Below are positions 1 through 62,204 of a stretch of DNA of 64,000 nt, piece after piece; position 1 is the stretch's first letter, and each line of letters begins with the position of its first letter. The notes below the pieces were generated by a model. That model was not told the origin of the DNA and did no database searches. It saw only the letters and a program-made list of their open reading frames with translations. The position numbers were made by a program, and so were the translations under genes. Source of the stretch: Eledone cirrhosa (taxonomy: Eukaryota); assembly GCA_964016885.1 (NCBI GenBank), contig OZ024743.1:261578001-261642000 (forward strand). The letters run 5' to 3'.

Positions 1-229
1 TTTTTCGTGATCCCCAGTAGGTGCTTTTCTATAAATTTAAAAGGCTGAAAGGTGTTTATCTGTAACTGCCTCCATTTTCGGAAAAGGAAGTTGTTGGCGA
101 GTGATTCAGAATAACAACAACAATCACCTGTCATTATAGTGAAATACTTTTTTTAAAGCCTGTGTTGCATTGTTGGACACACAGAAACACATACACAAAA
201 ATACATACATTATTTTTTGTTAGTTAGAT

Positions 230-3310: not shown

Positions 3311-5179
3311 CCCTTTAGCATTTGAACTGGCCGTATCCGGCCAGAATTCTCTCATCTCTTTCTGTTCTAACCGGTCATAATCAGCTGATGTTAAGGTATT
3401 GTTCTCAAAATAAATATCAAAATCTCATATTTTCAATATTGTACGACAACTACAGGAGAAGTACCTAGCTAAAAGTAAACCCCTATACTTAGCTTTTGTT
3501 GACTTGGAGAAAGCCTTTGACAGAGTCCCACGCCCCATTATCTGGTGGGCTCTCAGAAAACTAGGTGTTAATGAATGGCTTGTGAGAGCTATACAAGCCA
3601 TGTATAAAGAAACAGTCAGCAAGGTTAGAATTAACAACGAATATAGTAAAGAGTTTAGCGTAAAAGTTGGTGTTCATCAGGGCTCTGTCCTGAGCCCCCT
3701 CCTATTTATTATTGCCCTTCAGGCTATAACAGAGGAGTTCAAGACCGGCTGCCCATGGGAACTCCTATACGCAGATGACCTAACGCTCATAGCTGAATCA
3801 ATGGCTGAACTAGAGAAGAAATTCCAAACATGGAAGCATGGCCTAGAATCAAAAGGCCTTAAAATTAACCTGTCTAAGACTAAAGTTCTAATTTGTAGGA
3901 AGGAAAATAGGGCACTGGTCCCATCTGGGAAATGGCCATGCTCAGTGTGTAGGAAAGGAGTAGGCAGAAACTCCATTTTATGTCCCAAATGCAAAGTATG
4001 GGTGCATAAAAGATGTAGTGGGATCACAGGTAAGCTAACTAAGAATATAGATTTTATATGTGGCCGGTGCTCAGGTGCAATAAGTAGCAGCAAGTGCCCA
4101 CAGAATACTAGCTCATTCCATTGTACAGATGGTTCTATAAAAATAGTGGACACCTTCCATTACCTGGGTGACAAAATCAGCAGTGGTGGAGGGTGCTCTG
4201 AAAGTACAGTAGCTAGAGTCAGAACGGGATGGAAAAAGTTCAGAAAGCTTATACCACTATTGGCCGCTAAAGGGTTCTCTCTAAAAATGAAAGGCAGGCT
4301 GTATGATGCCTGCATACGAACAGCAATGTTACATGGCAGTGAGACATGGGCATTGTGTGCAGAGGATATACGCAGACTGGAGAGGAACGAAGCTTGCATG
4401 CTCCGTTGGATGTGTAATAGTAATATACGTGAACGGCAAAGCATAAATGAACTAAGGGAGAAATTAGGAATAAGAGGAATCAGATGTTGTTTATTTGAGA
4501 GAAGACTACGTTGGTATGGTCACGTGATGAGCATGAAAGACGACAGCTGTATAAAAAAGTGCAGGGCAATAAAAATAGACGGTAGCCACGGAAAAACCTG
4601 GGACGACTTGATAAATTCCGACCTCACACACTTACACCTCTCCAAGACAATGTCACTGGACCGAGATCTTTGGCGCTACACAGTAATACAGAAGACCCGC
4701 CTTGCCTAAGTACAAAGCGAAACCTACAGTCAGTAGGCACCTCTTAACAAAAATACACCCCCGTTCCATTACCCCCACCACGTCCACACCACCCCTTTCG
4801 ATGTAAAGTTATGTTGGTACCACAACATCCAGTCCTAAATAAATGAGGTCGTGTAGGTGTCACGACAAAAAAAAAAAAAAACATTCCACGCTGTAATGTG
4901 GCCGTGTAGGTAACACGGTAAAAAACTCCCAGTCCACACTGTAAACGTGGTTGGTGTTAGGAAGGGCATCCAGCCGTAGAAAACCCTCCAGACAGTCCTA
5001 TACGAGCAAGACAACCAATCTTGCTTCAAGTGGGAAAATTCCCGTCCAAACCCATGCAAGCGTGGAAGATGGACGTTAAACGATGATGATGATGATGATG
5101 ATGTAGGATAAATATGTGAGATAAAGCCTTTTCTGTGAAAATACAATAGTAAATATAGAGTAATGTGAATGATAAAGGG
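3311..5179. mobile_element. piggyBac-like MITE (TTAA|CCCTTTA...TAAAGGG|TTAA) split by an RTE insertion
   Basis: Halves 3311-3429 and 5105-5179 join to match the uninterrupted copy at 39159-39366; TTAA at 3307-3310 and 5180-5183. Confidence 0.85.
3430..5103 (+). mobile_element. 5'-truncated RTE-clade LINE (RT, PHD-like finger, 3' UTR, (GAT)n tail)
   Basis: ORF 3504-4709 has DLEKAFD, GVHQGSVLSPLLF, YADD, YLG, LRWYGHV; ends CGTTAAAC(GAT)n; highly similar to 54820-56472. Confidence 0.95.
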
Positions 5180-8389: not shown

Positions 8390-10416
8390 GAAAGCTATCT
8401 CCCTCTCTTTTAACCTGCCTGGCCCTTCAGCCAGGCGCGTTCCGCCGAGAGTATACTCTCTGGCAACCTGAACATGGTAATGTAAAGACCTCTTGGTCTC
8501 TTGCGCGCTGACTTCAAAACGGTAAATAACTAACTTTAATTCATCCTTTCATCTCTCTTGGCATGTCAACTATTCCGCTCTACATAGATCAACCTTGTTA
8601 AATAAACATTGTACATACAACCCAGTGTCATGTCATAATTGGTGACCCCGAGAAAAAAATAATAGGATCTAGTGTTGTGTGAATATGAAAAAAAGAAAAT
8701 TAATTAGCAGTATTTCAAAAAGAAAAAAATTCCTCTAACAACATTCCACATGGATTTTGTCTACAACGAAAAATATAAGTAATCTTTTCCTCAGCAGTAA
8801 ACAAACAAGAACAAATTTTGCTTTTCACCTCACGTGTTTACATCGTTTAAATGTGTTTCAATCACTGGATATATCCTTCGTACGTCTCACAACGAACACT
8901 CAAAAAGATTTGGACTCCTGTATTCTTATATTTAACATGTCAATTTTGATGAACATCACAGCTCACTTACTCATTCAACTAAGCCTTTTTCGCTACCTTT
9001 TCATCATTTTCAAAAAAAAAAAAATGGAACTCTCGCCATATACAAAGTGAATATAGCCTTTCCTTCTTTTTCATCACACCACGTTCACACAAATATTTTT
9101 AAATGGCTGCCAACGACCTGTTGCACTATCATTTTCGCGCCATTTTCTCGCGCAATAGAAATTTTTTTTTTTTCAACTTGACTTTAACTTTGTTTCGGCA
9201 CGTGTGGGAGCACACATCTCGACTCACTGAGATAACACACGCCATAGATAATGTTTCTTGCCAAGGATCCTCCAGCCTTAAGCTATATTCTCCTATTTGC
9301 CGGTTTAAAAATTTACCACGTAAATTTGCCGTTGAAAACTGCGCATTTATTCAGAATGATTATTTCTATGGTCGCTGGCCTCTTGACCCATCCAAGTCAA
9401 CGCGTTCTCAACATCGACTATCAACTTTGGCTGTTATTTCTAGCACTTTGCGCAACTCATTTTTTCTGGGAAACTTTTTACTGTGAATGGAAACAACATC
9501 GAATAGGCTCACTCCGCGAGACAACAACACAGCTTCATCTTTGCTTTATCAACAACCAAAACCAGCAGAACAAAACAGAGAATTTATTTTTGCAGCACTC
9601 TTCCTGTGAGAAAATCCCACCGCCTTCGGAGGTTGGGAATTTCACCACAGTCCAGAAACCACCTGGAGGACACACTTTCTTTCCTGCTGTCACCTGTGAA
9701 CTGTATTTTGAACATTTGAACCTTTTTTTTAATAACTATGTTCGAGCACGTTTCTTTGCTCCTTTGACCTCTTCTTTTAGGTTGATTACATTGTATCTTT
9801 GTGTGATGGATAGATAGATGTCCAGTAGCTCTCTGGCCAAGAGCGGTTGGCTGCCTTGATATCTATCATTGATTTTTGCATGCTTATATTTTGCTGTTTT
9901 GCTTTTATTGCAAACATTATTTTTTTTGTAATTTTCATGCCTGGACTTTGGTGTTACATGCTTGCCATCTTACTTCATACATGGTTGATTCGATTTTTAT
10001 ATTTTAAAAATCTGGCGGGGGATAATGTAGCAAGAGTTGCCTCCCTTGTTATGATGATCACATCACCAGTAGCGCTCTCTAGACAGGAAGTAGCTGGAGT
10101 TACTTCCCGTTGAGGTGGCAGAACCTTCTTAGGAACTTCCGTCCAGGGAACTATAAAATGAGAGAGCTGAAAGCTATCTCCCTCTCTTTTAACCTGCTTG
10201 GCCCTTCAGCCAGGCGCGTTCCGCCGAGGGTATACTCTCTGGCAACCTGAACATGGTAATGTAAAGACCTCTTGGTCTCTTGCTCGCTGACTTCAAAACG
10301 GTAAATAACTAACTTTAATTCATCCTTTCATCTCTCTTGGCATGTCAACTATTCTGCTCTACATAGCTCAACCTTGTTAAATAAACATTGTACATACAAC
10401 CCAGTGTCCTGTTATA
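8390..10416 (+). mobile_element. non-coding LTR retroelement (5' LTR truncated 8390-8637; 3' LTR 10026-10416)
   Basis: Direct repeat 8390-8637 vs about 10170-10416; PBS TGGTGACCCCGA at 8640; PPT-like CTGGCGGGGGATAA before TGTAGC; no gag/pol; interior homologous to 19254-21370. Confidence 0.88.
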
Positions 10417-19040: not shown

Positions 19041-19253
19041 CAGTAAAAGTTGTTTGAGTGAAAAACAGGAGTAAACAGGAGAAAGCTCTCTACATACGTA
19101 GTGTATAGGAGATTCATTGACGAGCACGCAAGAAGGACGTGTTTTTTTCTTTTTTGCTTGCAGCATATCACATAAACGAATATTTCATCTGAAGATATCG
19201 TTCCCATACCGACAACAAATGCATATATTACACATGAGATTGCATAAAAGAAC

Positions 19254-21370
19254 TGTAGCGGTTGTCTCCCTTGTTTTGATTAGGATCTAGACGGGAAGTG
19301 GAACCCTTTCTGCAACTTCCGGTCAGAGCCCTATAAAACTAACAACTTTAAGCTTCCTTTCTCTCTTTGCCTTTTCGGCACCGATTCACAGAGCCTCTCA
19401 TTGGGCTCCGCCATTAATTTGGCCAACAGGCGCCTGGCCTTAGCCAGGCGTCCTCTGCCAGCCGCGTTTGCCTGGCAATCAAAACGGTAACTACTAACTT
19501 TGCTTCATTCTAACAACATCCTCATCTTTGACATGTCAAGTATACTATCTACCATTGTTAATTAAATATTATACACACAAACCATGTCTCGTTTTGTTAC
19601 ATTCACCAACAACCAGTAATCTCGCTATATTGGTGACCCCGACGTGATACGAACACGCAGCCGTTCATCGCTATAAGTGGTCACCCCCCAAAAAAAAGAA
19701 AAAAATAGCACATCTGGTTTTGTGAGTAACATTACGAATACACAGCAAATTTAGCGACAAACTATGAAAATACTCAAGGACACGCACACACGCACATGTG
19801 GAATTCGCACAGACAGACTTTTTCTCTCACGCATCAATTAACTGTCGCATTTCACCAATATATATATATGTTTCTCGTTTCTTACAACGAACACTTTCAA
19901 AACAAAAAAAAAAACAAAAACATTTCACGATATATATATATGTTTCTCGTTTCTTACAACGAACTCTTTCAAAACACACAAAAAAAAAAAGAAATTTGAT
20001 ATTCTTTAAAAAACATTTCGACAGGAACATTTATTTTCGATGAACCATTGCCTTTTTGTTCATCGTTTTCTTCATCGTTCAAGTTTTTTGTTTTTTTCCA
20101 AAGTTCACACCAATAATTATGCTGAGTGAAGCCTTTCTTTTTCATCATTGTCACTTTCAAAATTGCACTATCATTTTCTCGCGCGTTAGAAATATTATTT
20201 TTTTCAACCTTGTATTGGCACGTGTAGGCAGCATAAATTCTCGATTCACAGAGATGTCTCTACTCACAGACAGCCGCACGCCAGAGATAACATTTCTCAC
20301 CAGGGATTCTTCAGCCTTAAGCTATATTCTTCTATTTGCCGGTTTATAAATTTACAATGTAAATTTACCGTTGATAACCGCGCATTTATTAAGAATGCTT
20401 ATTTCTCTGGTCGCTGGCCTCTTGACCCTTCCAGGTCAACGCATTCTCAACATCGATCATCAACTTCGGCTGCTATTTCTAGCACTTTGCGCAACTCATT
20501 TTTTCTAAAAAAATTTTTTTTACTGTGAATTTAAACACCGAATACGCTCACTCAGCGAGACAACAGCAGCAGCAACAGCAATACATCAATACAGCTTCAC
20601 CAAAGCCAGAGAATTCATTTTTGCAGCACTCTTCCTGTGAGAAAATCCATTCGGAGGTTGGAAATTTCACGATATACCACAGAACAGAAACCACCTGCAT
20701 TCATTCTCTGGAACACACTTTCTTTTCTGCTGTCATGTGATTGCACACCTGTGAACTATATTTTGAACTTTGAGCTCTTCTATTACTTTTACTTTATTAC
20801 ATTGTATCTTTGGGTGATGGATAGATGGATGTCCAGTCGTTCTCTGGCCAAGAGCGGTTGGCTACCTTGATATCTATCATTGATTTTTCCAAACATTCTT
20901 TTGTCGTAATTTTCATGCCTATTACAACATTCTCGCCAACTTGCTACATATTTTCATTTCGATTTTTATACACTAAAATTCTGGCGGGAGGTTATGTAGC
21001 GGTTGTCTCCCTTGTTTTGATTAGGATCTAGACGGGAAGTGGAACCCTTTCTGCAACTTCCGGTCAGAGCCCTATAAAACTAACAACTTTAAGCTTCCTT
21101 TCTCTCTTTGCCTTTTCGGCACCGATTCACAGAGCCTCTCATTGGGCTCCGCCATTAATTTGGCCAACAGGCGCCTGGCCTTAGCCAGGCGTCCTCTGCC
21201 AGCCGCGTTTGCCTGGCAATCAAAACGGTAACTACTAACTTTGCTTCATTCTAACAACATCCTCATCTTTGACATGTCAAGTATACTATCCACCATTGTT
21301 AATTAAATATTATACACACAAACCATGTCTCGTTTTGTTACATTCACCAACAACCAGTAATCTCGCTATA
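19254..21370 (+). mobile_element. intact non-autonomous LTR retroelement (LTRs 19254-19629 and 20995-21370), tRNA-Trp primed, Gypsy/CsRn1-like signals
   Basis: 376-bp LTRs with one difference seen; TSD GAAC; PBS TGGTGACCCCGACGTGAT at 19631; PPT-like CTGGCGGGAGGTTA; TATAAAA in LTR; no gag/pol ORF. Confidence 0.95.
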
Positions 21371-21482
21371 GAACCATTGAGATAATTATAATGAATAAAC
21401 GATTTATGTAATATCAGCATCTTTTTTATGTCGATACGCAATAAATATTTTTCATATGTAAACGAAACTTCCTCGTTTTTTC

Positions 21483-45008: not shown

Positions 45009-46261
45009 AAGAATCTCTGTAATCATTGCCATCAACTTTTGCTACCATCGCCATATCACTCTTGGTTGCCTTTAGCAGGATCCACTCTGTTACAAGCATT
45101 GGGGAGGTGTGGGTGGTGGCAGGTTTTTGGTTTGGGAATATCTTCCTTTGCGCAGTTCATCAGTCTTCTCCCATGACCCCTCTCTCAAGACCCAGTAAAA
45201 GATTATGAGCAATGCTCTTCCCAAAAGAAAGCTATTAGAAGTCATTTAGATTGGCAGACTCGATAGGTTGATAGATACATCTTGAGGACAGAATACTTCA
45301 TGGTATGGTACCTGTTTAGGATTTTTATGTTCTGAATTCAAATCCCACCTGGGTCAGCTTTGCGTTTCATCTTTCTATGATCGGTAACATGGAGTACAAG
45401 TAAAGGTAGTGGGGGAGGGGTAGTCTCTACGATTACTCCTCCAACCTTCCTTCCTGAGATTGCTGGCCTTGTTCCTAACTTAGAAACCCTTATATTGTCA
45501 AAATACAATGAGACTGGGTGGATGAATGGGTGAGTGGGAAGGTGGGTTTGGAAATACAAAAAACAATAAGTAGAAATATTCAAATTGTAACCTTCTTGTC
45601 TATATATGGAGAAGATGGAAAATAAACAAAAATATATTTTTAAAATTATACGCAAATAATCAAAAGCAATATCAGTTTGTTTTAGTTATGTTTTTGTTTT
45701 TATTGTCCATGTGAACACTTGCAGCCCTAATCTAGTTTTTTTGCCCTGTTTTTTAGATGCTAGATGTTTATAAGATTGTATTTATCTTGTCTTTTACTAT
45801 TTCCTGCCATACAACAACTGCCAGACTTTGTTAATTCCTGTGTCTGTAGTTTGTAAAAACCCTGATAAAAACTACTGCTGGTACCACCACCTCTACCCCC
45901 TCCCCACATCACCACTGCTGTAGCTACCACCTCTACCTCACCCACACATCACCACTGCTGTAGCTACCACCTCTACCCCCCATCACCACTGCTGTAGCTA
46001 CCACACACTACAGCTCTATTTCTCTCTCTTCCTCTATACATCTATCTCCTCACCTCACCATAGGCTATCTCTCTCTCCCTAACCCCCTCCTCACACCACA
46101 GGCTCCCCCCCCCCTTCACCAAAGCCCCCCCCCCTCACAGACTATCTCTCTCTCTCTCTCTTACTGCAGGCTATCTCTTCTCTCTACTCCCTTCACCACT
46201 GGCTATCTCTCTACCCCACTCTTACCACAAGTTATCTCTCTACCCACACCCTGACAGGCTA

Positions 46262-47345
46262 GGTCTCACCACAGACTATCTATCTCACCCCTCTCACCAC
46301 AGACTATCTATCTCACTCCTCTCACCACAGACTATCTATCTCACTCCTCTCACCACAGACTATCTCACTCCTCTCACCACAGACTATCTATCTCACTCCT
46401 CTCACCACAGACTATCTATCTCACCCCCTCTCACCACAGGCTATCTATCTCACCCCTTCTCACCACAGGCTATCTATCTCACCCCTTCTCACCACAGGCT
46501 ATCTATCTCACCCCTTCTCACCACAGGCTATCTATCTCACCCCCTCTCACCACAGGCTATCTATCTCACCCCCTCTCACCACAGGCTATCTATCTCACCC
46601 CCTCTCACCACAGGCTATCTATCTCACCCCCTCTCACCACAGGCTATCTATCTCACCCCCTCTCACCACAGGCTATCTATCTCACCCCTTCTCACCACAG
46701 GCTATCTATCTCACCCCCTCTCACCACAAGCTATCTATCTCACCCCCTCTCACCACAAGCTATCTATCTCACCCCCTCTCACCACAAGCTATCTATCTCA
46801 CCCCCTCTCACCACAGGCTATCTATCTCACCCCCTCTCACCACAGGCTATCGCACCCCCTCTCACCATCTCACCACAGGCTATCTATCTCACCCCTCTCA
46901 CCACAGGCTATCTATGTCACCCCATCTCACCACAGGCTATCTATCTCACCCCTCTCACCACAGGCTATCTATGTCACCCCATCTCACCACAGGCTATCTA
47001 TCTCACCCCTTCTCACCATCTCACCACAGGCTATCCATCTCATCCCCTCACCATCTCATCCCCTCACCATATCACCCCCTCACCATCTCACCCCTCTCAC
47101 CATCTCACTACAGGCTATCTATCTCATCCCTCTCACCACAGGCTATCTATCTCACCCCCTCTCACCACAGACTATCTATCTCACCCCTCTCACCACAGAC
47201 TATCTATCTCACCCCTCTCACCACAGGCTATCTATCTCACCCCCTCTCACCACAGGCTATCTATCTCACCATCTCACCACAAGCTATCTATCTCACTCCA
47301 TCTCACCCCTCTCACCACAGGCTATCTATCTTACCCCCTCTCACT
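46262..47345. repeat. minisatellite, 28-29 bp unit
   Basis: (CTCTCACCACAGGCTATCTATCTCACCCC)n, about 35 units, degenerate flanks. Confidence 0.97.
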
Positions 47346-48569
47346 ACCTCTTAGGTACAAGCCCTTATCTTTTATTTTACATAAGGCTTACATAGAGAGG
47401 TATCTTAATAGAATTTATGATAGTTTTCCTTGTTTCTAATAAAATGGCCTTATTTCTAATAAAATACATGTATATATTAATTACTGTATATACTTGTATA
47501 TAAGCTGAGAAATTTGATTGTAAAATGGGCATCTGGAGTGACTATTTTACAATGAAACACTGATTGTCTACATTTACTTTGTTGTCATGAGTGTTGTTTA
47601 TGCATTCCCTCGAGAACATTCCCAACAAATCTTTATAATTTGAATTTTTTAAGACAAATATTCCCTGCACACATATGAATGCACCTGTGTGCCGACTGTT
47701 TTTCTCTGTGACTTATACTTTTACTTTCAATCTTACTTCTGTCTTGTATTTTATTGCTCCCATTCTCTTTCCCTTCTCTCGCTCTCACTTACTCTCTCTC
47801 CTTAGTCAATTTTTTTCTTTCAACTATTACCTATTTATATGAGCATAGTTTCAATCACCCCTAGTATTTTTAATGATCTCCATAATGTTTAAGGAAAAAA
47901 AGTTTTTAAAAGTAATATCTTAAACTCAAAATGGGGTAAAAGGGTAGACTAATATATCAATTAATAATTTGACTGATTATTAAATTTTAACCAGCTTATA
48001 TGGTTTTAAAAAATTCGAACTGAGTGTACTAAAGAAAAAAATTTTTTTTCCCCAAATTATACCAGTGTTTAATATTAAACTTTTTAGCTAACTGAATGAG
48101 GTGGCATGCTGGCGCGAAATGTGTATAATTGTAAAAATCTTCCTAAAGCTTTAATACTTGCATGACGTTAAATTGTTTCCAAATTTTTTAAAATTTGAAC
48201 AGTTTCATACAAAAATATGTGCACATAGGTTTTTCTGACTTAATATTTTTTCTTTCAATCCTATGTAAGATTGAAATCTTACTTCTGATTTTATTTTATT
48301 GCTCTCGTTCTTGCCCTCGCTTTTTTTCCACCTCCTCTCTCTCCCTCCTACTACATGAATCCCCACACAAAGGTTTCTTATTCGATCTCTTGCTTTCATA
48401 GTACTCCTAGCATGTGAGTGGCTGGAAGTAAACTTGTTGAAACTTAATGTAATGGAAACTCATTACGTAATGAAGATGTGAAACAAAAGCTATACTCTAA
48501 ATGTCACTTAAAAGATTTTAAACATCAATATATTAAAACTTCATAAATATATTTTGTGAAATATACTCA

Positions 48570-50157: not shown

Positions 50158-50534
50158 AATATATATTTTTAATGAATTTGTCAGTTATTCCTTTTATAAG
50201 TATGCATAGTAGTATACTCATCGAATTACTTGTCTATGAATGTGTGGAGAATTATGTAAATGGTACAAGGAACTTTGGGCAACAGAAGCAACTGAAGTGT
50301 AGAATTTGTGCAACCGTGTATACTAATTGGACATCTTGGGTCCCAAAGACCAGTGCTATCTTTTATGAATTTCCCGAACAATACTCAAAGCATGATTCAA
50401 TATATATATAACAAATAATCCTTGGTATAAATGGCTGTTATATAGAATTTAAACAGCCATTGTTATCAGTCACATTGACTTTGACACATTTTATTTTTAT
50501 TTTTCCTCTCTCTCTACTCCACTTTTATATAAAG

Positions 50535-52523
50535 ATGGAGTCTAGTGTTGACCAAGAAGTTGATGAACAGGCTAAATTAAAGTCTAGTTCATTATCCCCC
50601 AAAGTTGCTAGACCAAAACTGCCTGCTTTTTCCTCAAGCTTTAGACCATCGAAAAGTCGCTCTAAAACAGATCCCGGCCACGCTGGTGAAATCAATCGGG
50701 CTGTTCTGGAGGATAGTAAACAAAGAAAACATGGTCGTCAAAGACTATCTCGATCTCAACCATCGAAGAGTTCCCAAGCACCAACATCAACTCCTACATC
50801 TCCTGTCACTGACACACAGAAGTCAGGATTTTCTCGGAGACAAAATCGAAGTCTAAAGCTTACAGAGTTAACAGATAAATTAAAATGTGGTCCTAATTCA
50901 AATGATATTTCATGCAACATTCCATCATCCAGTGATTTGTCAACAGTAACAGCCTATGGTACTTTAAGGAAAATGCGTAATATTGAAGATTTTAGTCAGT
51001 GTGAGCAAATTTTGGACTCGGCAGACGACAGTCTGTTTGAAAGCAGCAGTTCAAGGATGTCTGAAGATTTACAAAAGATGGAATCACCAGAGGCTGTGCC
51101 ATATTACCCTCATAAAGAAACAAAAGATTCCATGTCAGAACAATGTCTAAGTAAACTGGAAAGTTCCTCTGTTTCTTCAGATTGTCTGCCTTCTCCAGAT
51201 GACAAGTCATTGGATGATGATGGAACTGGTACCAGTGAATCAGATAACAGCTCAACAACAAGTGGCCCCTATATTTACCAGCCACTGAATCGGGACTCTG
51301 AGTTTTTCAAACTTGCTAAAACTGCCCCACAACGAAGAACTGGTATAACTACATTAGCAACACGTAACAAAGTACAAGCCATTTTTGGTACTAATTATCC
51401 ACAACTGACTGGTTCACAGCAGTCTGATGAAGAGAAACGCTCAGAAGAACATTCAGGTGGCCGCCCTCCTCAACGGTCTGAGTCTGTTCACGTACCAGGC
51501 AGACAACGAAAACCTGACCGATTCATTACACGTTCTTCAAAGCATAAAGCGTCGTCAAAAGAGGAGGGCTCGATTGATAGTAATGGATTTGGTACTTTAA
51601 AATCTGAAGAAACCTCAGAAAGTGCACCATCAGACCAATGTCAAGATAATATCTCACTGTTAGCTGCAGGCAGCTGCCATTCTACAGATGATCAAATTAA
51701 CCCTGATGATGCAGTGCATTTTTCTGAATATGCAGATGATAATATTGTTATGGAAATCTCAGACAGTGAAAGATTTGAAAAGAAAAATGGAAAATTAACA
51801 AAACCTAAATCAATAAGTGACCCAAGTGCTGACAAGACAAAAGTTTTGTCTGAAATTAGTAAGGAAATCAGTTCATCACATGCACACAGTTCACCTGTCT
51901 TGTCACGTGATCTAACAGAAGATGGGGGGCCTTTACAGCAATTCCAAGAAACCAATAACCCTCAACTTGAACTAAGCCCGTATTCAGAAATAGTTCTTTC
52001 ACATGCAAGCCCTAAATCCTCAAACCCAGAACGCCGTATATCTCAAGAAAGCCAAAGATGTCAAAGCCCAGGCTTGGAATCGACAATAGAAGAAGGAGAT
52101 GAAAGTGAACAATATTCTGACGATTCCTTATTAAAACCTGACAAGCTGATCTATATAGGATCATCTGCCCCAACAACGCCTCACAATCAGTCTCCAACAA
52201 GTACCCTGGAACGTCCTCCACACAACCTCTTGAGTGTTCCCATGACGCGGAAACCCATTTTAAGAAGTATGAGTTCAGCGAGTGTCCTTCAACATGACAT
52301 GCGCATGTTCAACGTTGCAAACAAAGAAAATGATGTTGTTCGTAAATTCAGCATAAATTCTGATGACTCAATTCCAGGAAATATGAAGCCTGGTACGTCC
52401 GTACCAGAATTTGCTACACCTCTCAGTGACAATGGTTCTTATATCACTATAAGCATGCCAGATGTCTGGAAACAGAATGCAACTGTATTTGATTCTCCAG
52501 AAAGGGCTCAAGCATATGCTAAG
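50535..52523 (+). CDS. large coding exon (663 codons, phase 0) of an unidentified host gene; Ser-rich, probably disordered N-terminal region
   Basis: Stop-free 2-kb frame in AT-rich DNA; polypyrimidine tract then AAAG|ATG; ends AAG|GTAAGA; no TE motifs; no recognisable domain. Confidence 0.88.
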
Positions 52524-52799
52524 GTAAGATCCTTCTTCTGAACCTTATTCTAGCTTGATCTATAAATATATATATATATATATGTATTATAATATATATA
52601 ACTCAATGCTATTCTATAATTCTGTCTGGTTGTTCTAAATAATCTTCTTGTATTTTAAAATCCCATTATTCGCTTATTACTGTTATATGCTTGTCCAATT
52701 ATGCCCAAAATTCGAAGATTTTATTTAAACCCTCCCGCTAACTACCCCATACCCCTCCCACCTGCCCCCACTCTCCACCATTATTATTTGGACCAATAA

Positions 52800-55700
52800 T
52801 AAGTCAGCGGCTTATGCTATCACTTCTCCTGGTTGCTTTTCGATATGATGGATGGACTAAGGAATTCTGGAGAGTCTGAAAAATCTGGACACTCAGTGAC
52901 AATGCCAAAGATAAAGACAAATTCACCTCATGCTGCCGGATGAAAAGGCAAGGACTCCTCCTCCTCTTTGTTTCGGCTGCGAATGGCCAACATAACCCCA
53001 ACCCCATTCCCCTCACCGCTCCCCACGCCCCACCGTTCCCACCCACCAAACGCAATCCAAAACTTCAGAGTTGGTACCATGAATGTAGGCACCTTAAAAG
53101 GTCGCTCTAACGAGGTTGTAGAAATGCTTGAACGTAAGGAGGTTGATGTTTGCTGTATCCAAGAGACCAGGTGGAGGGTGGGTCTGCTAGATTCATTGTG
53201 GGTAAAAAAAGATGCTATAAGCTTTTCTGGGTGGGAAATGACAATGGGCTGGGTGGGGTAGGAATCATGTTAGCAGAAAAATGGGTAGATGAGATAATAG
53301 ATGTAAATAGAGTGAACGACAGAATAATTAAAATAAGACTTGTCCTAAATAGAACTACTGTGATAGTAATATCTGCGTATGCACCCAATCCGGACTGCCT
53401 GGCGCTATAAAAGACAGATTCTATGAGACATTGATGCTCACTACCTCCCAAATAACCGACAGTGACTACATAATTATTGCTGGCGACCTAAATGGTCACG
53501 GACAACATTGCGACGGCTTTGACGGAATCCATGGAGGCTATGGGTTTGGTACTAGAAATGAGGAAGGCTTCAGAATCCTGGAATTCTGTGACGCAAATAA
53601 CCTAACTATCTGTAACACTAACTTAAAAAAACGAGACAATCACTTGATCACCTATAGATCAGGGGAACACACCAGTCAGATAGATTATATCCTTACCAGA
53701 AGACGTGACAGAGTGTCTGTTGTAAACACTAAATCCCTCCCCCATGAAGAATGCACCTCCCAACATAGACTCATAGTCAGCGACCTCATAGTCAGGACCT
53801 CATAGTCAGGACAAGACGTATTCGACAACAGAGGAGGACTATCCTCAGGAGGAAAATATGGAAGCTAAAGGACCCCACAACCAGTAATAAATTTAAAAGC
53901 ATATTACTTGATGCTTTCGACAGTAAGGAAGAGCAATTAGAGTCGTACAATATAGAGGAACAGTGGGAATTCCTGAAAGTTAACCTGGTGAAGGCGGCAG
54001 ATAAAATCTGTGGCTGGAGCAGGCCTATAGGCAGGAGGAGAGTAATGTGGTGGTGGAACAGTAAGGTGGAGGAGTCAATTAAGGCCAAAAAGCAGGCTTG
54101 GAAAGTATGGCGGAATGGGGGAAGTAGAGAAGACTATCAAGTGGCCAGGAGGGAAGCTAGGAGACAAGTGTACTTCGCAAGAAGGGAAGCAGAGGAAAGA
54201 AAGTGCAAGCATGTTCTACAACGCGAGGACCAAAAGCGTGAGGTGTTCAGGATTGCTAGGCAATGTGTCAAGGAAAACCGTGATATTGTCGGGGAGAAGT
54301 GTGTCCTTAATGATGATGGTGTACTTGCCATCACTGACGCTGATAAGAAGGTAGCTTGGAAGTGTCACTACGAAAGGCTACTAAATGAGGAGAATAAATG
54401 GGAGAAAGACAGTCTTCCCCACATCGATCCAATAGAGGGACCAGCAGTGCTAGTTGAAGGTAGTATAATAAGTAAGGCAATCAAAGATATGAAGACGGGT
54501 AAGGCGGCTGGGCCTTCGGAAATAGTTGCTGAAATGCTGAAAGCATCTGGAACGGTGGGACACACTATGGTCACCCGGATAGTAAACCAAGTCATACAGA
54601 ATGGGGCTGTTTCGAAGGACTGGCGTAGCAGCAGCATCATTAACTGCTACAAGGGTAAAGGAGATGCCCTAGATAGGGGTAACTATAGAGGCATTAAATT
54701 AATCGACCAGGTCATGAAGGTCACAGAAAAAGTAATAGCGCAACTAATCAGAGTAACGAATTGATCTAGATGAAATGCAGTTCGGGTTTGTGTCGGGTAA
54801 AAGTACCACAGACGCTCTTTTCATTGTATGACAACTACAGGAGAAGTACCTAGCTAAAAGTAAACCCCTATACTTAGCTTTTGTTGACTTGGAGAAAGCC
54901 TTTGACAGAGTCCCCCGCTCCATTATCTGGTGGGCTCTTAGAAAACTAGGTGTTGATGAATGGCTTGTGAGAGCTATACAAGCCATGTATAAAGAAACAG
55001 TCAGCAAGGTTAGAATTAACAACGAATATAGTGAAGAGTTTAGCATAAAAGTTGGTGTTCATCAGGGCTCCGTTCTTAGCCCCCTACTATTTATTATTGC
55101 CCTTCAGGCTATAACAGAGGAGTTCAAGACCGGCTGCCCATGGGAACTCCTATATGCAGATGATCTAACGCTCATAGCTGAATCAATGGCTGAACTCGAG
55201 AAGAAATTCCAAACATGGAAGCATGGCCTAGAATCAAAAGGCCTTAAAGTTAACTTGTCTAAGACTAAGTTCTAGTTTGTAGGAAGGAAAATAGGGCACC
55301 GGTCCCATCTGGGAAATGGCCATGCTCAGTGTGTAGGAAAGGAGTTTTATGTCCCAAATGCAAAGTATGGGTGCATAAAAGATGTAGTGGGATCACAGGT
55401 AAGCTAACTAAGAATATAGATTTTGTATGTGGTCGGTGTTCTGGTGCAATAAGTAGCAGCAAATGCCCACAGAATACTAGCTCATTCCATTGCGCAGATG
55501 GTTCTATAGAAATAGTGGACACCTTCCGTTACCTGGGTGACAAAATCAGCAGTGGGGGAGGGTACTCTGAAAGTACAGTAGCTAGAGTCAGAACGGGATG
55601 GAAAAAGTTCAGAGAGCTTATACCACTATTGGCCGCTAAAGGGTTCTCTCTAAAAATGAAAGGCAGGCTGTATGATGCCTGCATACGAACAGCAATGTTA

Positions 55701-58460: not shown

Positions 58461-58727
58461 TTGTATGTTTTTTTTTGTTTTTTTTTATGCTGTTACTGAC
58501 AGGACATCATATTTCCTGGTGGTGGTGGTGGTGAAGCTGGTAGTTTTTTCTTTAGAAATAGTGAGACTACTGTGTTCTGTGAAAGGACTGATGTTATAGT
58601 AGGAGGACTGACAGATAAGTTGACTCATTCCTGTTACTGCCACTCTTCAAATTTGAACACTAGCGTTTTTTAGAAAATCTTTAGGAGAAACATTTTCCAA
58701 TGGGCAACAAATGTTTATCCTGCAGTA

Positions 58728-59597
58728 ACTTTGTAGGTGACCTCTGTCACTAGCCTGGTCACTTCTGTGTAGGTGACCTCTTTGTCACTCGCCTGGTCTC
58801 TTCTGTGTAGGTGACCTCTTTGTCACTCGCCTGGTCACTTCTGTGTAGGTGACCTCTTTGTCACTTGCCTGGTCACTTCTGTGTAGGTGACCTCTGTCAC
58901 TAGCCTGGTCACTTCTGTGTAGGTGACCTCTGTCACTAGCCTGGTCACTTCTTTGTAGGTGACCTCTGTCACTAGCCTGGTCACTTCTTTGTAGGTGACC
59001 TCTGTCACTAGCCTGGTCACTTCTTTGTAGGTGACCTCTGTCACTAGCCTGGTCACTTCTTTGTAGGAGACCTCTGTCACTTGCCTGGTCACTTCTTTGT
59101 AGGTGACCTCTCTGTAAATTGCCTGGTCTCTTCTGTGTAGGTGACCTCTTTGTCACTCGCCTGGTCTCTTCTGTGTAGGTGACCTCTTTGTCACTCGCCT
59201 GGTCACTTCTGTGTAGGTGACCTCTTTGTCACTTGCCTGGTCACTTCTGTGTAGGTGACCTCTGTCACTAGCCTGGTCACTTCTTTGTAGGTGACCTCTG
59301 TCACTAGCCTGGTCACTTCTTTGTAGGTGACCTCTGTCACTAGCCTGGTCACTTCTTTGTAGGTGACCTCTGTCACTAGCCTGGTCACTTCTTTGTAGGT
59401 GATCTTTGTCACTTGCTTTGTCACTTGCCTGGTCACTTCTTTGTAGGTGACTGCTTTGTCACTTGCCTGGTCACTTCTGTGTAGGTGACCTCTTTGTCAC
59501 TTGCCTGGTCACTTCTGTGTAGGTGACCTCTTTGTCACTTGCCTGGTCACTTCTGTGTAGGTGACCTCTTTGTCACTTGCCTGGTCACTTCTGTGTC
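58728..59597. repeat. minisatellite, 39-41 bp unit with internal hairpin
   Basis: (GCCTGGTCACTTCT.TGTAGGTGACCTCT(TT)GTCACT.)n, about 21 units. Confidence 0.97.
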
Positions 59598-62204
59598 TGA
59601 TCACTTACAATAATAATTGTTGCCCAATTTGCTATAAACAAATAAATTTTGCAAGATTCTCACTTGCAGAGGAGCAGAAGATATGGGTGACATATTCTTA
59701 TCATCATTTTACATCTGTTTTCCCTGCTGGCATAGGTTGGACATGTTTTTATGGACTAGGTCAATACTTAATCTGAACTACTGTCCTCTTAGATGGGTTG
59801 GAAGACCATGTCTTGCATAATGCATTCCATTTTTGGTATGGCTTCTATAGATTCCCTTAATGCCAACCACTTTTCAGAGTGTACTGGGTGCATTTTATAG
59901 TGCTGTGAACACTAGAAAGGTTGTCATGTCTTCATTATGATTGTAGCACTCTCACAACCCTTTTTCCTGCTTTCTATGGCTGGGTGCAATTGCTAGTTTC
60001 TAAACACAATCATACACTGATCTGTTATGGTTTAGTAATGGGAGGGGTTGCTAAAGACAAGATGTTCTTTGTGAAATACAATTTAGACTCTGATGTTACA
60101 AATGGATGTCACACACATACACACTCACACTCACTCTCATCTTTCTTTTTACTATAACTGTTTTGAATGACAGACAATGCATCATAGTACACAGGGAGAG
60201 AGAGAAAATGTTTATGTATGAGAGAGAAAGAGAGAAAGAATTCAAGAATGATAGACTAGATAAAGACAAACAGGAGAAAGAGAGAGCGGAAGTTAAAAGG
60301 TTTACAAACATAAGAGGCTAGAAGACACAGATCAATGGAATTTGTGTTATTGTGTAACCTTTGCACCTCTTTTCGATTGTTGAGGATTGAAGGAAAGAAA
60401 ATATCCAAGTTGTTTAAAAGAAATGATTTCTCATAAAAGAGTCAGCAGAACTGAGGATGGGAAGCAAACATAAAAGATAAAACAACAGCATAAAATAAAA
60501 AACTTAGAAAATGAAGCAATAACAATAATAAATTTGAGTCACTGAGGGAGTCTCTTCATGGTTCCTTGACTTACTAAAGGATAGCAACCAATTCTTTGTC
60601 AAATCAATTTCTACCTTAAAATAATAGAACATGAGATAATGTAGTCATAGAGGCACTGAATAAAAGTGATCATGGCTGGAATGCCTTTGATCATTGTTTG
60701 GCACACTCTTTACTGACCAGCAATTAATATCAAGCTGCCTGAAACTGCTCCTGGTTCGAGAATACAAAACTTTATTTTAAAGTGTTTATATTTATTGAAA
60801 TTCTATCTTAATTTTATGTAAGAAGCTTTGTTGAATTATACTCAAAACACAAGCTATTAAGTTGAAAGTTAGTTATATTACTAAAGTTAGTTATCGAGAA
60901 AGTCTATATTACTAAAGTATATTACTACATTCCTCCAAAACTTGATTATTTACTCAAATTATTTGAAATTTGGAGTTAAAGCTCTTTTCTATATAAAGTA
61001 ACGGCAATACAAGAACTGAAAACAAATAATCCTGAAAAATGACATTATTTCAGATGGTTTGACCAATTTATTGAAGAGGAAACAACTAATTTTTTTACAT
61101 GTCATCTTTTTTACAGACAAAGTATGGTTGCATTTTATCTTTTGAGTTACATTGATTTTCAGAACACACAGTTGTGGTTGTCTGATAATTATTTTCCAAA
61201 TGATGTGAACATAATAGGCAGTGTATCTCATCAGAAATCTCGTTACAAAAGGGTTAAGCATATAAGTTATGCTGTGGAATGAATCATGGTTGTGATGGAG
61301 TAGGGAGTCTACCCCCTAATTTTGTTAAAAGTTGATTCACTTGGTTTGTGCATCCCATTTTTACAAAAAGAAGCACCAAAAAAATACAATGAGTTGTGCC
61401 AACACAGAGAAAAAAGAAAGCAACAAAGATGTTGCATTATTTCACTGATCACTATCATATAAACACTACACAACTCCATTACTCTCTCTCTCTCTCTATA
61501 CTTCTCTCTCTTTCTACATTATTGTTTAGTAGTGAAATTTAGTTACCCCTCTCCTCCACCCTATACTACTGTCCCTTGCTGACCAACTAGAAATGACTCA
61601 ACTGCTTATTAGTCAGTTTCAAGTTAAACACACTCCTAGTTAACATGTCATCTTCATTTACCAGTGTGTGTGTGTTTGTAGCATGTGTAAGCATGTGCAC
61701 ACACACACACACACGCATGTGTTTCTCTCTCTCTCTCTCTCCACACACATACATATACAGGGTGTACATACTTCAATACCATTTTAATAAATATTGCACA
61801 GGTAATAAAGGATGTATAAATTTTTTGTTGTGTACACACACACACACACATATATGTATATGACATATATATTTACATACTTGTAAACACACCCACACAC
61901 ACATTTCTGTACCTGTTCTGTCAATAACTATGGAATTATGTTTATCTTAAGTCTATTTCAAATGATTATAAAATTGAGGGAAAATATATAGGGCTGTGTT
62001 TATGGAAGTAAAGGAGGAATGATATTACTTTGTGTTATATTTAATCTTGGGATGAATAAGACTTGTCATTTCTTACTGTTTGTTAATATTTGTCCATACC
62101 CCCTCCCTACCCTCAATGTACTTCCACCCATCCCCATGACTGTCTTTTCCCAGCCCGGCTGATGATACAACTTGTGCCCAAGTATTGTAGTAAGGTGGTA
62201 GCAC

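What the first reader, a model, noticed from the sequence alone, without database searches (positions are those of the whole stretch)
19631..19662. Primer-binding site extends 32 nt into tRNA-Trp with a single mismatch opposite A58: possible fossil of m1A58 read-through
Seen: TGGTGACCCCGACGTGAT-A-CGAACACGCAGCC. Known: the first 18 nt are the canonical tRNA-Trp PBS, and RT normally stops at m1A58 after copying 18 nt. Against the animal tRNA-Trp sequence as I recall it (..GGCTGCGTGTTCGAATCACGTCGGGGTCA-CCA), complementarity continues 14 nt through the T loop and T stem, with one mismatch at nt 19, which is A58. Inference: RT read through the methylated base, misincorporated, and fixed the product in the genome. 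This would record a tRNA modification in DNA, or represent a heritable extended PBS.
Basis: partly seen in the sequence, partly recalled or inferred. Interest (0 to 1): 0.78.

Follow-up and report, generated by a model that had tools for sequence, protein, structure and literature searches.

The report
Retrotransposons record tRNA methylation footprints
A young jumping-gene family carries a 32-letter copy of its primer tRNA instead of the usual 18, and dozens of independent overlong copies in this genome are miscopied or cut off at the same three tRNA positions, which likely makes them a DNA record of where that tRNA is methylated.

Summary
Confirmed. 19631-19662 matches host tRNA-Trp(CCA) for 32 nt, except an A opposite A58. 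It is the primer-binding site (PBS) of a 2.1-kb non-coding Gypsy-type LTR element (LTRs 375/376 identical, 4-bp target duplication). A duplicate of the LTR end and a decayed copy of the family's older 11-nt PBS follow it.

It is not a one-off: 160 of 410 Trp PBS sites run past nt 18, in at least 46 independent lineages. Nt 19 is mismatched in 9 of 31 lineages against 3 of 124 positions at nt 21-24 (p=2.5e-5). Copies end mostly near G37 or just before G26; the one copy passing G26 is miscopied there. This matches the reverse-transcriptase signature of m1A58, m1G37 and m2,2G26; methylation itself was not measured.

The mechanism, delayed second-strand transfer, is published for defective HIV-1 proviruses. 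Not found in 9 paper searches: overrun copies that are inherited and amplify (about 83 sites; median LTR divergence 0.4% against 4.1% in short-PBS sisters), or a three-site footprint. This scan has no earlier finding of it; one different tRNA-in-U5 case exists elsewhere. New variant of a known kind.

The parts
19250..19253 (+). left copy of the 4-bp target-site duplication
   Evidence: same 4 letters flank both ends
19254..19629 (+). 5' LTR, 376 nt, ends TG...TA with short imperfect inverted termini
   Evidence: 375 of 376 identical to 20995-21370
19631..19648 (+). canonical 18-nt tRNA-Trp(CCA) primer-binding site, 1 nt after the LTR
   Evidence: complement of tRNA positions 76-59 including the non-genomic CCA
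19649..19649 (+). nt 19: A opposite tRNA A58 (T expected)
   Evidence: A in 27 and G in 2 of 29 inspected sites of this lineage
19650..19662 (+). overrun: exact complement of tRNA positions 57-45 (T loop, T stem, variable loop), G57 isodecoder
19663..19677 (+). junction plus duplicate of the LTR (U5) end; 19668-19675 repeats 19622-19629
   Evidence: sequence; the same kind of duplication (8 nt or more) in 6 of 46 lineages, null mean 0.9, null maximum 4
19678..19687 (+). second, decayed short PBS, followed by the same A-rich tract that follows the 11-nt PBS of sister copies
   Evidence: 154 short-PBS sites; 20 of 20 fetched have the 11-nt PBS directly after the LTR end
19688..20982 (+). non-coding internal region
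   Evidence: longest stop-to-stop frame 112 aa
20983..20991 (+). polypurine-tract-like site 3 nt before the 3' LTR
   Evidence: sequence; function inferred from position
20995..21370 (+). 3' LTR
21371..21374 (+). right copy of the 4-bp target-site duplication
8514..10408 (+). older relative of the same family in this window, with the short 11-nt PBS at 8640
   Evidence: internal region 72% identical over 960 nt (9141-10055), LTR pieces about 70%; outer limits approximate

Best explanation
This is the primer-binding site of a non-coding LTR retrotransposon that carries 32 letters copied from host tRNA-Trp, likely because reverse transcriptase ran past the probably methylated A58, put an A opposite it, and the overlong strand was likely rescued by re-priming just inside the LTR end. 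SHOWN: the match to the host tRNA; the element's anatomy; a sister group with an 11-nt PBS; the order [LTR end][PBS+14][LTR-end duplicate][old PBS]; inheritance in a young clade; and position-specific mismatches and stops at A58, G37 and G26 across independent events. INFERRED: (1) plus-strand strong-stop DNA copied the still-attached tRNA to position 45; (2) its 3' end could not pair at the PBS, switched to the U5 end of a minus strand, recopied the U5 end and the old PBS, and finished normally; (3) the element was integrated by a Gypsy integrase supplied in trans; (4) the new 5' site became the working PBS and the old one decayed; (5) the three hot positions are m1A58, m1G37 and m2,2G26.
For: Match and anatomy. 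160 of 410 exact 18-nt sites continue to match at nt 20-24. 116 of 140 inspected sites fall into 46 lineages. With nt 19-24 left free (39 sites, 31 lineages), nt 19 is mismatched in 9 of 31 against 3 of 124 at nt 21-24, p=2.5e-5. In a second set it is 5 of 21 against 9 of 168 at nt 25-32, p=0.011. Stops: 16 per 73 nt at risk at nt 37-42 (G37 = nt 40) against 16 per 389 elsewhere below nt 48, p=2.5e-6; none at 43-47; 3 of 3 survivors stop at 48-49 (G26 = nt 51) (35 lineages). A search leaving nt 40 and 51 free gave 80 matches, 79 at tRNA-gene loci or clusters; the one outsider (L255) is a PBS overrun to nt 68 with wrong bases at nt 19 and 51. In the 8 longest copies 8 of 17 bases opposite A58/G37/G26 are wrong against 3 of 249 elsewhere past nt 18. 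Nt 19 varies within lineages that share a junction (T3/A4, A1/C1, A27/G2). L162 shows LTR, PBS, overrun, a 13-nt LTR-end duplicate and a 4-bp flanking duplication. These three methylations are the dominant causes of RT mutation and stop in tRNA sequencing (PMC5066629, passages).
Against: No methylation data for this host. Most lineages (about three in four) have the correct T at nt 19, and a coding Gypsy lineage has T in 34 of 34 sites. The window's A is one founder event. Mismatch at nt 19 is commoner with T at nt 20 (8 of 16) than with C (4 of 30), p=0.013; a host gene with T58 and A57 exists (L196), which could explain some A cases, though not G or C cases or the window. The control rate is pushed down because search patterns demanded matches at some control positions. 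Only 6 of 46 lineages show a clear LTR-end duplicate, so slip-back is one route among several. The window's stop at nt 32 (G45) is not one of the three methyl sites; 8 of 35 lineages end at 31-33. The tree needs 3 changes of the 'extended' label, so one origin is neither shown nor excluded. The published dATP preference is for m1A followed by U, and here it is followed by A (PMC4787781, passages). A second primer could not be tested (0 sites).
Confidence: 0.83

Rival explanations
1. The overrun is real but was copied faithfully from an unmethylated tRNA, and the A at nt 19 is an ordinary later point mutation in this family's founder.
For: One founder event; most lineages have T at 19; the HIV-1 authors read their overruns as hypomodification (PMC12657518, passages).
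Against: Nt 19 is mismatched about 12 times more often than nt 21-24; most of the changes are to A or G (transversions), only 1-2 lineages have C.
Confidence: 0.09
2. The primer was a variant tRNA-Trp with U at 58, copied correctly.
For: 1 of 67 gene-type matches has T58 (L196); 5 lineages have A19 with T20, as that gene would give.
Against: L196 has A57 and the window matches G57; G and C at nt 19, and the G37 and G26 signals, are not explained. Without the three A19/T20 lineages the unbiased set still has 6 of 28 (hand count).
Confidence: 0.03
3. The extra letters came from DNA-level recombination or gene conversion between a PBS and a genomic tRNA-Trp gene.
For: PBS and gene share 15 nt; about 70-80 gene copies exist.
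Against: A DNA template would not give stops at nt 37-42 and 48-50 or mismatches at nt 19, 40 and 51; no inspected copy runs through the gene into its flank; LTR-end duplicates fit template switching.
Confidence: 0.02
4. The 32-nt site was kept because it is a better PBS that captures and unfolds tRNA-Trp more strongly (compatible with the best explanation; this concerns why it persisted).
For: The two largest lineages both end at nt 32 (34 and 29 inspected sites); the extended clade is younger than short-PBS sisters; predicted duplex -64.7 against -36.6 kcal/mol for 18 nt; the second PBS is decayed in most inspected young copies.
Against: Gaining a full 18-nt site over an 11-nt one would suffice; nt 31-33 is also a common stop among singletons; short-PBS copies as young as 0.8% exist; no functional data.
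Confidence: 0.25

Closest known systems
Delayed (aberrant) second-strand transfer in defective HIV-1 proviruses (PMC12657518; section 11 and passages read)
   Same: LTR end, then 18-nt PBS, then 7-54 nt of further primer-tRNA copy, in integrated DNA; 5 of 44 had a change at position 58 and none at 54.
   Different: All HIV cases are defective somatic dead ends with deletions, and the authors did not read the change at 58 as misincorporation in the passages seen. Here the copies sit in an animal's genome assembly, occur in many LTR families, two lineages amplified, one gained a duplicated PBS, and G37 and G26 signals are seen.
m1A58 plus-strand strong-stop (PMC8599865; passages read)
   Same: Explains the 18-nt norm and why nt 19 is special.
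   Different: That model says products running past the stops cannot finish or integrate; here they did, and propagated.
RT signatures in DM-tRNA-seq, mim-tRNAseq and m1A profiling (PMC5066629, PMC8062790, PMC4787781; passages read)
   Same: Mutation at m1A58, stop-dominated m1G37, stop and mutation at m2,2G26.
   Different: Those are in vitro library reactions on purified tRNA; this is the inferred in vivo equivalent written into chromosomes.
Non-autonomous Gypsy-dependent LTR elements (TRIM/LARD range; PMC10886601, passages read)
   Same: Two LTRs, PBS, PPT, no coding, 4-bp target duplication as in animal Gypsy-dependent elements.
   Different: 2.1 kb, longer than TRIMs (<1 kb); the tRNA-derived piece is antisense at the PBS, not a promoter-like tRNA inside the LTR as in Helenus.
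Ty1/Ty3 plus-strand transfer (PMC5371799; passages read)
   Same: LTR elements whose first plus-strand product extends into the tRNA.
   Different: In Ty1/Ty3 the tRNA copy is a dead end and is not inherited; here it has repeatedly been inherited.

Membership tests
non-autonomous LTR retrotransposon | two direct LTRs | tested here: met
   376 nt, 1 mismatch
non-autonomous LTR retrotransposon | PBS just after the 5' LTR and PPT just before the 3' LTR | tested here: met
   19631 and 20983-20991
non-autonomous LTR retrotransposon | target-site duplication | tested here: met
   4 bp here and in most full-length sister copies
non-autonomous LTR retrotransposon | no gag/pol coding | tested here: met
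   longest frame 112 aa; these frames were not scanned against Pfam
Gypsy-dependent element | an autonomous Gypsy partner sharing LTR ends or PBS | tested here: inconclusive
   4-bp duplication fits; another Trp-primed family encodes protease and RT (L139), but no partner of this family was identified and domain order was not established
TRIM | shorter than about 1 kb | tested here: not met
   2117 bp
Helenus | tRNA-like sequence inside the LTR | tested here: not met
   no tRNA by ARAGORN or Rfam
delayed second-strand-transfer product | tRNA copy contiguous with the PBS, beginning with the CCA complement, directly after an LTR end | tested here: met
delayed second-strand-transfer product | variable overrun lengths followed by a junction to non-tRNA sequence | tested here: met
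   24-50 nt in 46 lineages, 68 nt in L255
delayed second-strand-transfer product | intermediate seen in extrachromosomal cDNA | not testable with these tools
   needs sequencing of unintegrated cDNA
m1A58 / m1G37 / m2,2G26 RT signature | position-specific mismatch or stop at 58, 37 and 26 | tested here: met
m1A58 / m1G37 / m2,2G26 RT signature | signal lost on demethylation or in a methyltransferase mutant | not testable with these tools
   no such data; no RNA holder listed
m1A58 / m1G37 / m2,2G26 RT signature | same pattern with a second primer tRNA | tested here: inconclusive
   only tRNA-Thr could be tried; 0 PBS sites

The most novel reading that the evidence does not exclude
Animal genomes hold a readable, datable fossil tRNA-modification sequencing experiment: LTR-element overruns report m1A58, m1G37 and m2,2G26 of germline primer tRNAs, possibly isodecoder by isodecoder. 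Overrun plus slip-back is also a routine way to create a new, longer PBS that takes over from the old one and founds the next active subfamily.
Probability: 0.5. Interest if true: 0.8.

Novelty: new variant of a known kind. Interest (0 to 1): 0.62.

Why it matters
It would give in vivo evidence, from genome sequence alone, for where a retrotransposon's reverse transcriptase stops and errs on its primer tRNA, a point argued mostly from in vitro work. Any assembled genome rich in LTR elements could be mined for the modification map of germline primer tRNAs, and copies can be dated by LTR divergence. It shows that overrun products thought unable to integrate can be rescued, inherited and amplified. 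It also offers a concrete route by which a family lengthens or renews its PBS (11 nt to 32 nt here).

Tried and rejected
ARAGORN and Rfam find no tRNA in the window or element. The first search for tRNA genes included one letter of the CCA complement and so returned only PBS-type copies, 30 of 30 fetched; it was redone. 'No overrun passes G26' was my working claim and was overturned by L255. The pooled length test was biased by a search that demanded 35 nt and was replaced. Second-primer test: the Rfam tRNA search scored 63 of 552,091 candidates and yielded only tRNA-Thr genes and a tRNA-like repeat; the Thr PBS had 0 matches. Expression: no RNA holder listed. Contigs of three runs cover the region in pieces, none spanning it; one low-depth contig from a second organism label (X5) carries the extension with A at nt 19 but ends in adapter-like letters, so it was not used. 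LTR starts of singleton events were often not resolvable; only L162 gave a clean flanking duplication, L043 and L116 lie in AT repeats, and L035 did not match. Three older papers were not held (the third id was recalled and may be wrong), so early retroviral and Ty work is known to me only from reference lists, one review and recall. No supplements were read; the HIV paper's Fig. 5b alignment could not be seen and may show position-37 stops. Repeat databases were not searchable.

Full report
Observation. The 32 letters are at 19631-19662. A 44-letter search of the host genome (G000, 3.0 Gb) gave 71 matches. Of 30 fetched, ARAGORN called 29 tRNA-Trp(CCA) genes and one was a PBS-type copy. The genes have A58. 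With the CCA tail, the G57 isodecoder pairs with window nt 1-18 and 20-32; nt 19 (19649) is A where T is expected, and nt 33 breaks the match. The chance of 13 of 14 extra matches is 1.6e-7. Position n of the site faces tRNA position 77-n (my numbering from the ARAGORN cloverleaf), so nt 19 = A58, nt 40 = G37 and nt 51 = G26.

The element. LTRs at 19254-19629 and 20995-21370 differ at 1 of 376 positions, with a 4-bp target duplication, a purine tract before the 3' LTR and no frame over 112 aa. It is a recent non-coding LTR element; Gypsy dependence is inferred from the 4-bp duplication, and no partner was identified. After nt 32 come 5 junction letters, an 8-nt repeat of the LTR's right end, 2 spacer letters, a decayed short PBS and an A-rich tract. 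A search for the LTR end joined directly to an 11-nt PBS and that tract found 154 sites (up to 1 mismatch; a few may be second sites of extended copies). All 20 fetched had that layout, and an older relative of this kind lies in the window at 8640. The extended form therefore looks like the short form plus an inserted block, as a slip-back of the overrun plus strand would give (inferred).

Heritability. 90 sites have A at 19 and match at 20-24. Seven lack this family's junction letter at nt 33, leaving 83; 25 of these were inspected and all belonged to the family, and 13 lie in one tandem array. LTR pairs could be aligned over 250 nt in 18 of 21 extended and 14 of 20 short copies: median divergence was 0.4% (7 identical) against 4.1%, p=0.005. 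In a tree of the internal region (38 rows; 3 short copies dropped for lack of an anchor) the window lies in an all-extended clade of 16 (99/96). Five other extended copies are unresolved among short ones, and the label needs 3 changes. One of those five (L142 = L218) has T at 19 and a different junction, so it is a separate event.

Not a one-off. Of 410 exact 18-nt Trp sites, 160 match at nt 20-24 as well (70, 90). I inspected 140 distinct sites; 116 extend to 24 nt or more and group by junction into 46 lineages, behind many different LTR ends. The grouping was by BLAST of the downstream sequence with five manual reassignments.

Position 58. One search left nt 19-24 free and returned 39 sites in 31 lineages. 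Nt 19 is wrong in 9 of 31; nt 21-24 are wrong in 3 of 124; p=2.5e-5. A second set gives 5 of 21 against 9 of 168 at nt 25-32, p=0.011. Among 67 gene-type matches only 1 differs at this position. Wrong bases are mostly A and G, rarely C, and nt 19 varies inside lineages sharing a junction. Against: about three in four lineages have T; the mismatch is commoner with T at nt 20 (8 of 16 against 4 of 30, p=0.013); and the one T58 gene has A57, so it may account for some A19/T20 cases but not the window. If the founder's A came from the same mixture, about 92% of such mismatches are position-specific (inference from 29% against 2.4%).

Positions 37 and 26. In the 35 lineages unbiased for length beyond nt 24, stops per nucleotide at risk were 16/73 at nt 37-42 against 16/389 elsewhere below 48 (p=2.5e-6), 0/15 at 43-47 and 3/4 at 48-50. 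The window 37-42 was chosen after seeing the data, and chance microhomology blurs ends by a few letters. As a forward test I left nt 40 and 51 free: 79 of 80 matches were at tRNA-gene loci or clusters, and the one outsider, L255, is an LTR-PBS overrun to nt 68 with wrong bases at nt 19 and 51. In the 8 longest copies 8 of 17 bases facing A58, G37 or G26 are wrong against 3 of 249 others; for G37 and G26 alone it is 3 of 9, p=6e-4 (control rate partly deflated by the search patterns). These are the dominant mutation and stop sites in tRNA sequencing (PMC5066629, passages). That this tRNA carries m1A58, m1G37 and m2,2G26 is inferred from position and from general knowledge of eukaryotic tRNA, not measured.

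Rescue route. In 6 of 46 lineages the overrun is followed by 8-24 letters repeating the element's own LTR end (null mean 0.9, maximum 4 in 300 draws), often with 1-4 letters of overlap at the junction. L162 then shows a 4-bp flanking duplication. The other 40 lineages join to internal or unidentified sequence.

What is known. Delayed second-strand transfer with 7-54 nt of tRNA-Lys3 after the PBS is described in 44 defective HIV-1 proviruses, 5 with a change at 58 (PMC12657518, section 11 and passages). The m1A58 stop was shown in vitro, with the model that products running past the stops cannot integrate (PMC8599865, passages). In Ty1/Ty3 the tRNA copy is not inherited (PMC5371799, passages). 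PMC12220202, PMC7472051, PMC4787781, PMC8062790 and PMC10886601 were seen as passages only. Nine searches of the open library found no report of inherited, amplified overruns or of a multi-site modification footprint in a genome; subscription papers, older scans and repeat databases were outside them. This scan's index gave one different case in another genome (tRNA-Trp copy inside U5, e1-9869716; not checked) and nothing by sequence or place.

Verdict. The mechanism is a known error of reverse transcription. What appears new is its heritable, amplified form with PBS duplication, and a three-position footprint readable from one genome. New variant of a known kind; interest 0.62.

Noticed in passing
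L139:2058-3719 and 33 other sites (lineage D0): A second, coding family (protease and RT by Pfam) also carries a 32-nt tRNA-Trp site, with the correct T at nt 19 in 34 of 34 sites; one further copy (L017) has one extra G inserted exactly at nt 19.
   Followed up: partly
L162, L116, L043, L169, L055, L035: Likely mini-insertions of one LTR, PBS, tRNA overrun and a short duplicate of the LTR end, then apparent host DNA; L162 has a clean 4-bp flanking duplication.
   Followed up: partly
L143: LTR plus 48-nt overrun with a 10-nt direct repeat on both sides, as if a dead-end plus strand was captured without a normal right end.
   Followed up: partly
L168 (G000:C10:53056915-53056997): Two overrun PBS copies joined head to head as a palindrome, folding back near the anticodon.
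   Followed up: no
L103, L106, L174: Copies of the window's family with two tandem units of [LTR end + 32-nt site], suggesting repeated slip-back or unequal exchange.
   Followed up: no
window 19678-19687: In most inspected young copies the second PBS has changed so that it is complementary to the first and can pair with it in a predicted hairpin.
   Followed up: partly
window 19615-19622 and sister copies: The 5-6 letters about 10 nt inside the LTR's right end are hypervariable between otherwise near-identical copies.
   Followed up: no
G000:C14:21370171-21464587: 13 extended-PBS sites in one orientation, mostly 4-6 kb apart, a tandem array inflating the copy count.
   Followed up: no
G000:C4:353.39-353.49 Mb and C4:277.41-277.44 Mb: Tandem clusters holding most of the roughly 80 tRNA-Trp gene matches.
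   Followed up: partly
L241, L243-L251: A dispersed tRNA-like repeat with variable anticodon, probably a SINE head.
   Followed up: no
window 3414-4709, 50412-52541, 53769-54764: Long open frames (431, 709, 331 aa stop to stop) not examined.
   Followed up: no
window 46064-47439 and 58706-59753: Minisatellite arrays with 28-29-nt and 36-nt units.
   Followed up: no
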